A stretch of 1,489 nt of DNA. Origin: Naegleria gruberi. Its lineage: Eukaryota. This document shows, piece by piece, positions 215 to 869 of the stretch. The position numbers and the translations under genes were made by a program. The notes below the pieces were generated by a model. The model had not been told where the DNA came from and made no database searches. It saw only the letters and a list, made by a program, of their open reading frames with translations. How positions within the stretch are numbered: the stretch's first letter is position 1; the number at the start of each line of letters is the position of its first letter. Where the stretch lies: NCBI GenBank assembly GCA_000004985.1, contig GG739404.1; one strand, written 5' to 3'.

Positions 215-371
215 ATCTTTTAACAAATCTCATCATTTTAATAGTTTTCCACGTCTAAATGAACAACAAAAGTGAATTGAAATAAATAGTGTTGTGAAAT
301 GATTTAATTGAAAACAATTTTCTTACTTTCTCTTGTTGCTCTTCTTTTAATTGGTCAAATTGGTCAACCAG

Positions 372-492
372 TCCAATCTTTGAGAAATTATGATCTTGAT
401 CCAAAAGAAGTTGTTCTTCCGTTCAACACAAAAGCTTTAACGGCTAACAATCAAACTGGCATCGAGGGTCTCGCTCCTTTACTCGACAAGAT
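372..492 (+). CDS. Possible upstream exon of the SnoaL-like gene, tentative. It would need exon 1 at 259-271 (ATGAACAACAAAA), intron 272-371, and intron 493-541.
   Basis: Frame-2 translation is IQSLRNYDLDPKEVVLPFNTKALTANNQTGIEGLAPLLDKM. GIEGLAPLLDKM resembles ester-cyclase GPEGFKQFVTMF and LDPKEVV resembles LAPDFVDH. Upstream of 372 the sequence is ttttcttactttctcttgttgctcttctttt...caaccAG (318-371), which is a polypyrimidine tract plus a CAG acceptor. ATG 259-271 followed by GTGAAT at 272 is phase-compatible and gives MNNK-IQSLRNY, compared with ester-cyclase ENKALVRRFY. Donor GTAAAA at 493 and AG at 540-541 are phase-compatible with exon 519/542-600. The full four-exon model is 405 nt, encoding 134 aa, which is the typical SnoaL domain size. 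Both the GTGAAT donor and the A-rich second intron are weak. Confidence 0.3.
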
Positions 493-518
493 GTAAAACA
501 AAAATTTCCAATCCATCA

Positions 519-600
519 ATGCAGAAGAAACCAAAAACAAGGCAACCGTGCTTGCAAGTATTCAATACTTTGGAAATTAATCCCAATTCTCAAATGGAAG
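519..600 (+). CDS. Internal or first exon of the same SnoaL-like gene (frame 0, ATG at 519, or a 542 acceptor if an upstream intron exists)
   Basis: Frame 0 reads MQKKPKTRQPCLQVFNTLEINPNSQME and ends at G600, immediately before GTATGT (601-606), a textbook fungal/protist 5' splice site. The intron 601-657 (57 nt, ...ttcaAG) restores frame 0 exactly, since G600 plus TA658-659 gives GTA. The joined sequence ...QVFNTLEINPNSQMEVREMLQDENGVIV parallels ester-cyclase ...[29 protein letters not shown]. A TGA at 627-629 inside the intron blocks read-through. Confidence 0.45.
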
Positions 601-657
601 GTATGTTTTTTACAATAATTTTGAATTGAATATTTTGCAAAAATTTGAATATTCAAG

Positions 658-869
658 TAAGAGAAATGCTTCAAGATGAGAATGGAGTAATTGTCAGATC
701 ACGTGCTAGTGGTAATCCAATTGGAAGTTTCTTTGGAGTTCCATGTAATGGATCTAAAGCAATTGATATTATAACTATTGATATTCATACAGTTGAGAAT
801 AATCAAATTGAAACTATTTATCAGGAAGAAGAATGGACTCTTGCCATTAAACAATTATCTGGAAAGTAA
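658..869 (+). CDS. Terminal exon of a SnoaL-like / ester-cyclase-like (NTF2-fold) protein
   Basis: The translation VREMLQDENGVIVRSRASGNPIGSFFGVPCNGSKAIDIITIDIHTVENNQIETIYQEEEWTLAIKQLSGK* aligns with the conserved C-terminal core of SnoaL_2/ester-cyclase proteins, recalled from memory as ...[50 protein letters not shown]...LLQQLG. The pattern matched is G-x3-G-x-F-x-G-[IV]-P-x-[TN]-G-K-x-[VI]...IDI...[IV]E[ND][GN][KQ]I[VE].. followed by [WY]. The stop codon is TAA at 867-869. The exon start is set by an AG acceptor at 656-657 that is in phase with the upstream exon. The same frame is open from 630. Confidence 0.6.

What the first reader, a model, noticed from the sequence alone, without database searches (positions are those of the whole stretch)
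259..869. Intron-containing SnoaL-like / ester-cyclase-like gene immediately downstream of a 5S gene; possible bacterial-origin enzyme fold in an AT-rich eukaryote
The C-terminal match to the SnoaL_2/ester-cyclase core is strong. The gene only makes sense as spliced: GTATGT at 601, an in-phase AG at 657, and a frame-0 TGA inside the intron. A four-exon model (259-271, 372-492, 542-600, 658-869) gives exactly 134 aa, the normal domain size, but two of its introns are weak. SnoaL-like proteins are overwhelmingly bacterial or fungal secondary-metabolism and stress proteins, and eukaryotic copies are frequent candidates for horizontal acquisition followed by intron gain.
Basis: partly seen in the sequence, partly recalled or inferred. 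Interest (0 to 1): 0.55.

Follow-up and report, generated by a model that had tools for sequence, protein, structure and literature searches.

The report
Broken SnoaL-like gene with one intron
Next to a 5S rRNA gene in an unidentified AT-rich eukaryote lies a copy of a mostly bacterial 'ester cyclase' (SnoaL-like) gene that has one genuine short intron but is interrupted by a stop codon and two single-base frame breaks, so it is most likely a young pseudogene (or a mis-assembled gene) and not the tidy four-exon gene first proposed.

Summary
The basic observation holds. A 5S rRNA gene lies at 6-124, a SnoaL-family (PF07366) coding region lies downstream, and 601-657 is a real-looking GT-AG intron. 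The four-exon model does not hold. Homologues show the coding sequence is continuous from at least 377 to 600. The homology runs frame 2 (377-571, in-frame TAA at 494-496 on a conserved Leu), then frame 1 (571-597, WKLIPILKW, the family's most conserved motif), then frame 0, then the intron, then 658-869. The copy also lacks four family-invariant residues and is the longest branch among 121 members. Best reading: an unprocessed, fairly young pseudogene, about 0.65; assembly error hiding an intact gene, about 0.2. The family is overwhelmingly prokaryotic (at least 231 species, many phyla). Naegleria fowleri is the only named eukaryote among the 120 best hits listed. That fits horizontal acquisition followed by intron gain, but no donor can be named. 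This is an ordinary finding of low interest.

The parts
6..124 (+). 5S ribosomal RNA gene, followed by T-run 124-127 (Pol III terminator-like)
   Evidence: Rfam RF00001, 105.4 bits, model 1-120 of 120, E 1e-23
199..213 (+). Exact 15-nt copy of the 5S 3' end plus T-run (GTGCTGTAGTCTTTT; original at 113-127)
   Evidence: the repeat finder family D3; local alignment score reached by 0 of 500 shuffles
299..376 (+). Putative start ATG (299-301) and signal-peptide-like segment MI*LKTIFLLSLVALLLIGQIGQPVQS, in frame 2, with TAA as codon 3 (305-307). This N-terminus is inferred and is not supported by homology.
   Evidence: Frame 2 is open from 308 to 493 and continuous with the homologous domain. Some family members carry lipoprotein or Tat signal peptides (P0017, P0048). 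L002 is open upstream through a hydrophobic stretch. A diverged copy of the start at 139-182 reads MIY..., 28/44 nt, p about 0.006.
377..571 (+). Homology-supported coding sequence in frame 2 (SLRNYDLDPKEVVLPFNTKALT...FQSINAEETKNKATVLASIQYF).
   Evidence: tblastn of P0001ext and P0002 in frame +2, 377-571; family HMM positions 4-57
494..496 (+). In-frame TAA, aligned with the conserved second Leu of the family motif LLAD.FQSI (98% Leu). Consistent with TTA to TAA.
   Evidence: Colinear, gap-free alignment with P0001 and P0003; conserved-column table, window position 40
569..571 (+). Frame break 1: one base missing in a T-run (TAC TTT|TGG expected, TACTTTGG observed). Shift from frame 2 to frame 1.
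   Evidence: tblastn frame +1 hit, 571-600, WKLIPILKWK against WKMIPDLKWE; repairing T alone lifts the HMM score from 37 to 63 bits
571..597 (+). Frame-1 segment encoding WKLIPILKW, the most conserved motif of the family (FWKLIPDLKWE)
   Evidence: F65, W66, P70, W74 invariant
596..597 (+). Frame break 2: one base missing in a G-run (TGG GAA G expected, TGGAAG observed; L002 has TGGGAG). Shift from frame 1 to frame 0.
   Evidence: Only the T+G double repair gives one full-length domain, 173.8 bits, HMM 4-135; L002 sequence
601..657 (+). Spliceosomal-type intron, 57 nt, GTATGT...CAAG, phase 1 (splits codon G|TA = Val in KWE-V-REML)
   Evidence: Removing it restores gap-free colinearity with all homologues: 173.8 bits in one domain against 158.8 bits split in two. 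Pfam score rises from 27.7 to 33.1. GC is 17.5% against 32-37% in exons, and the intron holds an in-frame stop.
658..869 (+). Last exon, frame 0 (REMLQDENGVIVRSRASGNP...TIDIHTVEN...EEWTLAIKQLSGK), with TAA stop 867-869 at the family's usual C-terminus
   Evidence: tblastn, 64% identity to P0001; HMM 65-135, 98 bits; no in-frame stop in 69 codons
888..1489 (-). Convergent LRR-like gene that runs off the window. It has its own 1-nt frame break near 1105-1109 and a TGA stop at 888-890. Not part of the SnoaL gene, but relevant to the pseudogene-versus-assembly-error question.
   Evidence: Translations; three consecutive 26-aa LRR units are kept only with a 1-nt repair; sub-threshold Pfam LRR_4/LRR_6 hits span the junction; no homologues found

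Best explanation
Positions 299-869 hold a disabled, unprocessed copy (pseudogene) of a eukaryotic gene for a small SnoaL/NTF2-like 'ester cyclase'. The ancestral gene had two exons: about 299-600, plus two bases now missing, and 658-869. A 57-nt phase-1 spliceosomal intron (601-657) separated them. It encoded a precursor of about 170 aa, with a probable N-terminal signal peptide followed by a 136-aa alpha+beta cone domain. In this copy a conserved Leu codon has become TAA (494-496). Codon 3 of the putative signal peptide is also TAA. Two single-base deletions (T-run 569-571, G-run 596-597) bracket the family's most conserved motif. Four otherwise invariant residues have been replaced. No full-length enzyme can be made from it. 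Shown: the family assignment, the colinear homology across three frames, the lesions and the intron boundaries. Inferred: that the lesions are real mutations rather than assembly errors, the signal peptide and start codon, and the prokaryotic origin of the lineage.
For: Family: PF07366 above its cut-off; 2,829 homologues found; the profile hits solved SnoaL-type cyclases, IdmH 6hnn at E 8e-8; the model of homologue P0003 has pLDDT 90 and superposes on IdmH, SnoaL2, AclR and SnoaL with TM 0.6-0.8. Gene structure: tblastn pieces fall in frames +2, +1 and +3. The family HMM, built without the window, gives 173.8 bits in one domain covering HMM 4-135 for the doubly repaired, intron-spliced sequence. 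Lesions: TAA at a 98%-Leu column. There are only 2 in-frame stops in 170 codons, against 12.8 +/- 3.4 in shuffles, so the decay is recent. Relaxed constraint: the window differs at 18 of 67 columns that are at least 90% conserved (family median 1). It has lost the 100%-invariant Y17, F111, M114 and H131, all of which its nearest relative P0001 keeps. It is the longest branch of 121 sequences, mean distance 0.75 against a median of 0.34. TAA acts as a stop here: the ORF ends at TAA exactly at the family's C-terminus. The retained intron shows it is not a retro-copy.
Against: All three inferred indels in the window (two here, one in the neighbouring LRR-like gene) are 1-nt deletions in homopolymer runs. 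That is also the signature of long-read assembly error, although 55% of the coding bases already lie in runs of 2 or more. Two adjacent unrelated genes both carrying frameshifts fits a noisy assembly somewhat better than two independent pseudogenes. The closest relative, P0001, is itself divergent (about 13 real deviations at conserved columns), so part of the divergence belongs to the lineage and is not decay. No reads or transcripts are available, the source organism is unknown, and no orthologue above 60% identity was found for comparison.
Confidence: 0.65

Rival explanations
1. The gene is intact and functional in the organism, and the two frame breaks and the TAA(s) are assembly or base-calling errors (homopolymer under-calling). 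The true product would be a secreted, intron-containing ester cyclase of about 170 aa.
For: All three inferred indels in the 1.5-kb window are single-base deletions within homopolymers, and the unrelated neighbouring gene has one too. Apart from these the ORF is very clean, with 2 stops in 170 codons against about 13 expected. TAA 494 could equally be a shift at the TTAAA/TAAAA homopolymer boundary.
Against: A substitution-type error that creates a stop exactly at a conserved Leu is uncommon. Errors do not explain the loss of four family-invariant residues that the nearest relative keeps, nor the longest branch in the family. No ATG is available in frame 2 after the TAA at 305-307.
Confidence: 0.2
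2. One reading: a functional four-exon gene (259-271, 372-492, 542-600, 658-869) encoding a 134-aa SnoaL-like protein. The introns at 272-371 and 493-541 would bypass the stop and the frame breaks.
For: The model is open and 134 aa long. 493-541 starts with GTAAAA and ends with AAG. The model scores 113 bits against the family HMM.
Against: 493-541 encodes FQSINAEETK in the same frame as the upstream exon, colinear with all homologues, and 542-570 encodes ATVLASIQYF in frame 2, not QPCLQVFNT. The HMM match splits (HMM 4-25 plus 53-135), so positions 26-52 are lost; in the P0003 model these correspond roughly to the end of alpha-2, the first strand and the start of alpha-3. The FWKLIPDLKW motif is also replaced by unrelated residues. 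The score is 60 bits lower than the repaired colinear model. GC of 493-541 is 31%, like the exons, against 17.5% for the genuine intron. GT..AG pairs are easy to find in AT-rich DNA.
Confidence: 0.04
3. Recoding: the organism reads TAA as a sense codon (a ciliate-type code) and/or uses programmed frameshifting, so the gene is translated as it stands.
For: Both in-frame stops are TAA. The + strand gene could run on to a TGA at 879-881, and the minus-strand neighbour ends in TGA.
Against: TAA 867-869 lies exactly at the family's C-terminus. TAA 494 aligns with a conserved Leu, not a Gln or variable position. The neighbouring 200-codon reading has no in-frame TAA or TAG. Two -1 shifts 25 nt apart would still be needed, and neither site has a canonical slippery motif. 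The no-frameshift alternative (intron 601-661, TAA read through) scores 40 bits lower and loses the core motif.
Confidence: 0.03

Closest known systems
Prokaryotic 'ester cyclase' subfamily of SnoaL-like proteins (PF07366; about 136 aa; motif FWKLIPDLKWEIQEMLQDGN...MTIDIHTVEN), e.g. P0007, P0016 (Anaerolineae), P0019 (Riflebacteria), P0022 (Methanomicrobiales)
   Same: Colinear over the whole 136-position domain after repair, at 41-60% identity. The window keeps R89, D117, H119, E133, W135 and the FW...P.LKW motif.
   Different: The window copy has a spliceosomal intron, a possible signal peptide, an in-frame stop and two frame breaks, and has lost Y17, F111, M114 and H131. The prokaryotic genes are intact, intronless and often sit in small regulated operons next to HxlR or AraC regulators. 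The biochemical function of this subfamily is not established.
Naegleria fowleri FDP41_005940 (P0003), SnoaL-like domain-containing protein
   Same: It is a eukaryotic member of the same subfamily, 56% identical to the window protein, and groups loosely with window + P0001 + P0004 in the NJ tree.
   Different: It is intronless and intact, has no hydrophobic N-terminus, and has different neighbours. It is 74% identical to P0007, which sits in a bacterial operon, so it looks like a separate and more recent transfer. The four-sequence 'eukaryote' clade has only 27% bootstrap support.
P0001 (ENA metagenome contig k141_425859, L002)
   Same: Nearest relative in the tree (72% bootstrap), 54-57% identity. 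It shares lineage-specific changes (C20A, M36L, V129I, GVPCNGSKA) and an upstream in-frame hydrophobic extension.
   Different: It is intact, has no intron on its contig, and keeps Y17, F111, M114 and H131. Its organism is unknown.
Characterised SnoaL-fold enzymes: SnoaL (1sjw), AknH (2f98), IdmH (6hnn), SnoaL2/AclR (2gex, 2gey), ChaU (8kaa)
   Same: They share the NTF2-like alpha+beta cone fold. The family profile hits IdmH at E 8e-8, and the homologue model superposes with TM 0.6-0.8.
   Different: Sequence identity is only 11-21%. These enzymes belong to actinomycete polyketide pathways, and nothing here indicates such a pathway, so the catalytic residues cannot be transferred with confidence.

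Membership tests
SnoaL-like polyketide cyclase family (Pfam PF07366) | Protein scores above the Pfam gathering threshold (28.4 bits) | tested here: met
   33.1 bits for the 2-exon splice and 34.1 bits for the repaired full-length protein; 27.7 bits (just below) for the unspliced C-terminal ORF. SnoaL_2 PF12680 is not met (13-20 bits against 27).
Prokaryote-type 'ester cyclase' subfamily (FWKLIPDLKWE / MTIDIHTVEN motif group) | Full-length colinear match to the subfamily profile | tested here: met
   173.8 bits in a single domain, HMM 4-135 of 136, but only for the conceptual translation with two 1-nt repairs and intron 601-657 removed.
Prokaryote-type 'ester cyclase' subfamily (as a functional member) | Uninterrupted reading frame encoding the whole domain | tested here: not met
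   In-frame TAA at 494-496 (and at 305-307 after the only candidate ATG), plus frame shifts at 569-571 and 596-597.
Prokaryote-type 'ester cyclase' subfamily (as a functional member) | Retention of the residues invariant in the other 120 members | tested here: not met
   Y17N, F111I, M114I and H131Q at 100%-invariant columns, and 18 of 67 deviations at columns at least 90% conserved. R89, D117, H119 and W135 are retained.
NTF2-like / SnoaL fold | Alpha+beta cone (three helices packed on a curved sheet) | tested here: inconclusive
   Shown for homologue P0003 (pLDDT 90.4; Foldseek to 6hnn, 3kkg, 2gey and 1sjw, TM 0.6-0.8).
SnoaL-type enzyme | Catalytic activity (aldol/ester cyclisation or a related acid-base reaction in the pocket) | not testable with these tools
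   No member of this subfamily was found with a characterised reaction; the names are automatic annotations.
Spliceosomal intron (601-657) | GT...AG boundaries whose removal restores the frame and colinearity with intronless homologues | tested here: met
   GTATGT...AAG, 57 nt, phase 1. Removal gives one domain instead of two and adds 15 bits. GC is 17.5% and the intron holds in-frame stops.
Spliceosomal intron (601-657) | Observed splicing in transcripts | not testable with these tools
   No transcript data; source organism unidentified.
Horizontally acquired gene (prokaryote to eukaryote) | Eukaryotic sequence nested with support inside prokaryotic diversity, with a patchy eukaryotic distribution | tested here: inconclusive
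   Distribution: at least 231 prokaryotic species across many phyla against one named eukaryote among the 120 best hits listed. The NJ tree places window+P0001 (72%) among prokaryote-type sequences, but the deeper nodes are weak (27%), the tree is unrooted, there is no donor, and the databases are biased towards prokaryotic gene calls.
Unprocessed pseudogene | Disabling mutations in a copy that keeps its intron, plus signs of relaxed constraint | tested here: inconclusive
   The lesions, the intron and the excess divergence are present. Whether the lesions are real and not assembly errors cannot be tested without reads.

The most novel reading that the evidence does not exclude
The lesions are assembly artefacts, and the locus is a working gene: a prokaryote-type ester cyclase acquired horizontally by an unidentified AT-rich protist lineage (shared with the organism behind metagenomic contig L002). 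Since acquisition it would have gained a signal peptide and a spliceosomal intron, giving a small secreted enzyme of bacterial origin.
Probability: 0.2. Interest if true: 0.35.

Novelty: new member of a known kind. Interest (0 to 1): 0.2.

Why it matters
The practical lesson is about method. In AT-rich DNA, an open spliced model of 'normal domain size' can be assembled from chance GT/AG pairs around real lesions, and homologue colinearity exposes this. If the copy, or an intact paralogue, is real, it adds a second eukaryotic lineage besides Naegleria that carries this otherwise prokaryotic ester-cyclase subfamily. It would also be an example of intron gain after transfer. Neither point is surprising to specialists, and no open question hinges on it.

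Tried and rejected
- **Ciliate-type code (TAA/TAG = Gln).** I translated all six frames this way. Rejected because TAA ends the ORF at the family's C-terminus, TAA 494 sits on a conserved Leu, and frame shifts would still be required.
- **No-frameshift model** (frame 2 throughout, alternative acceptor giving intron 601-661). It scores 21.5 bits in Pfam and 134 bits against the family HMM, against 174 for the repaired model, and it loses the core motif.
- **Single repairs.** T only gives 63 bits and G only gives 37 bits; both repairs are needed.
- **Euplotes-style +1 shift at AAT-TAA (575-580).** Considered from the sequence. It is incompatible with the frame-1 WKLIPILKW match, and the same rule applied at TAA 494 would destroy FQSIN.
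- **Finding the source organism.** Exact look-ups of four window ORFs found nothing. The LRR-like neighbour has no homologues. A metagenome scan returned only intronless relatives at 52-56% identity.
- **PDB search with a single sequence.** No hits; the family profile was needed.
- **Literature search for Naegleria + SnoaL.** Nothing relevant.

Full report
**What is in the window.** The window is 33% GC. Rfam finds a complete 5S rRNA gene at 6-124 on the + strand (105.4 bits, E 1e-23), ending in a T-run. On the - strand, from 1489 down to 888, an LRR-like reading frame runs off the window's end.

**Checking the observation.**
- The C-terminal ORF 645-869 is SnoaL-like. On its own it scores 27.7 bits to PF07366, just under the 28.4 cut-off. 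Joined to 519-600 by removing 601-657 it scores 33.1 bits, and the match extends across the junction.
- SnoaL_2 stays below its threshold, and DUF4440 does not hit the window models.
- The four-exon model is arithmetically correct: 405 nt, 134 aa, open.

**What homologues show.** A first protein search returned two relatives, P0001 and P0002.

Their sequences show that the window's frame 2 reads ...PFNTKALTANNQTGIEGLAPLLDKM*NKNFQSINAEETKNKATVLASIQYF. This is colinear and gap-free with P0001's YTKALTVNSEGVASVAPLLKNLFSDDFQSINSAQTLHRDALIGNIQYF.

tblastn split the homology into three pieces:

| Piece | Window coordinates | Notes |
|---|---|---|
| Frame +2 | 377-571 | In-frame TAA at 494-496 |
| Frame +1 | 571-600 | WKLIPILKWK against P0002's WKMIPDLKWE |
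| Frame +3 | 658-869 | After the intron |

A profile search then found 2,829 relatives. In these, FWKLIPDLKWEIQEMLQD is almost invariant. The window reproduces that motif only if two bases are restored:
- one in the T-run 569-571 (TAC TTT TGG);
- one in GG 596-597 (TGG GAA G; the L002 DNA reads TGGGAG at that point).

The repaired, spliced translation aligns end to end with P0001 and P0002 at 54% and 42% identity.

**A direct test of the competing gene models.** I built an HMM from the 120 best homologues, leaving the window out, and scored each model against it.

| Model | Bits | HMM positions matched |
|---|---|---|
| Frame 2 throughout, alternative acceptor (intron 601-661), no repairs | 134 | 4-135 |
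| Repair of T only | 63 | 4-72 |
| Repair of G only | 37 | 4-57 |
| Both repairs, intron retained | 159 | split in two |
| Both repairs, intron 601-657 removed | 174 | 4-135 of 136, one domain |

Three conclusions follow:
- Intron 601-657 is well supported. It has GT-AG ends, is in phase 1 (G|TA), restores colinearity exactly, and has 17.5% GC against 32-37% in the flanking exons.
- 'Intron' 493-541 is refuted.
- The coding region carries two genuine frame discontinuities in the sequence as given.

The 'intron' 272-371 and 'exon' 259-271 can be neither supported nor excluded by homology, which starts around 377-401.

An alternative N-terminus is ATG 299 followed by MI*LKTIFLLSLVALLLIGQIGQPVQS. 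This looks like a signal peptide continuous with the domain in frame 2, but its third codon is TAA. Three things make it plausible, though it remains an inference:
- Some prokaryotic members carry lipoprotein or Tat signals.
- L002 is open upstream through a hydrophobic stretch.
- A diverged copy of the start at 139-182 reads MIY... (28/44 nt, p about 0.006), which hints that codon 3 was once a Tyr codon.

**Is it functional?** As given, the sequence cannot encode the domain.
- TAA 494-496 aligns with a column that is 98% Leu, so TTA to TAA is the simplest change.
- The copy differs from the consensus at 18 of 67 columns that are at least 90% conserved, against a family median of 1. The losses include the 100%-invariant Y17, F111, M114 and H131, all of which its nearest relative P0001 retains.
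- It is the longest branch of 121 sequences.
- The three homology-supported pieces still contain only 2 stops in 170 codons, against 12.8 +/- 3.4 in shuffles, with none of 5,000 shuffles reaching 2 or fewer. Any decay is therefore recent.
- TAA terminates the ORF exactly where the family ends, and the neighbouring 200-codon reading has no in-frame TAA or TAG. A TAA-sense code is therefore unlikely.

The main caveat concerns the indels. All three inferred indels in the window, including one near 1105-1109 in the LRR-like gene, are 1-nt deletions in homopolymers. In the LRR-like gene a 1-nt repair preserves three successive 26-aa repeats. This pattern is also typical of long-read assembly error.

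I weigh the alternatives as follows:

| Reading | Probability |
|---|---|
| Pseudogene | about 0.65 |
| Assembly error hiding an intact gene | about 0.2 |
| Recoding | about 0.03 |
| Unassigned | the rest |

**What the ancestral product would be.** The family profile hits solved SnoaL-type proteins: IdmH 6hnn at E 8e-8, then 3k0z, AclR, SnoL, TsrD and 8ysb. An AlphaFold model of the Naegleria homologue (pLDDT 90.4) superposes on IdmH, 3kkg, AclR, TsrD, ChaU, SnoaL2 and SnoaL with TM 0.6-0.8.

It is therefore an NTF2-like alpha+beta cone. In characterised relatives (my own knowledge of SnoaL and AknH) this fold holds a hydrophobic pocket that performs acid-base chemistry on polycyclic or ester substrates. 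The reaction catalysed by this particular subfamily is not known; the 'ester cyclase' and 'steroid delta-isomerase-like' labels are automatic annotations.

**Origin.**
- The subfamily is overwhelmingly prokaryotic. There are 231 species-level genomes with tblastn-confirmed copies across Chloroflexota, Bacteroidota, Myxococcota, CPR groups, Methylococcaceae, cyanobacteria and Methanomicrobiales.
- Typical bacterial operon contexts are next to HxlR plus a Zn-ADH and next to an AraC regulator.
- The only named eukaryote among the 120 best hits listed is Naegleria fowleri. Its gene is intronless and 74% identical to the bacterial-context protein P0007, which suggests a separate and recent transfer.
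- In an NJ tree the window pairs with P0001 (72% bootstrap). It joins Naegleria + P0004 only weakly (27%).
- No relative exceeds 60% identity, none has an intron, and no donor lineage can be named.

Horizontal acquisition followed by intron gain, and possibly signal-peptide gain, is the most economical reading. It is an inference from distribution, and the databases are biased towards prokaryotic gene calls.

**Verdict.** The multi-exon model is an artefact, and the locus is best described as a recently disabled (or mis-assembled) member of a known family. Interest is low.

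Noticed in passing
window 113-127 and 199-213: The last 11 nt of the 5S gene plus its T-run (GTGCTGTAGTCTTTT) recur exactly 86 nt downstream (0 of 500 shuffles reach the score). This is an orphan 5S-tail / Pol III terminator copy, possibly left over from a local duplication.
   Followed up: partly
window 139-182 and 294-337: GTGAAATGATTTA is repeated exactly, and weaker similarity continues after it (28/44 nt, p about 0.006). Both copies open hydrophobic ORFs (MIYMLPIAFTLIV... 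and MI*LKTIFLLSLV...). This suggests a partial duplication of the gene's 5' end, and that the TAA at 305-307 was once a Tyr codon.
   Followed up: partly
window 888-1489 (- strand), break near 1105-1109: A convergent LRR-like gene (26-aa Cys-containing repeats, a GGRGKGG stretch) runs off the window. It has its own 1-nt frame break in a homopolymer and ends in TGA 18 nt from the SnoaL stop. It has no detectable homologue among 5.8 billion proteins, and only sub-threshold Pfam LRR hits.
   Followed up: partly
L003 5001-5459 (Naegleria fowleri VFQX01000048.1) and L092 3801-4211: The N. fowleri SnoaL-like protein FDP41_005940 is intronless and 74% identical to a protein encoded in a bacterial AraC-linked operon. 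This looks like an independent, recent bacterium-to-Naegleria transfer of the same subfamily.
   Followed up: partly
L002 1-66 and L010 1-135 / 553-602: The metagenomic contigs carrying the nearest relatives look eukaryotic or transcript-like. L002's frame is open to the contig start through a hydrophobic stretch. L010 has AT-rich UTR-like flanks with an AATAAA-like signal and an A-rich end. Their organisms are unknown.
   Followed up: no
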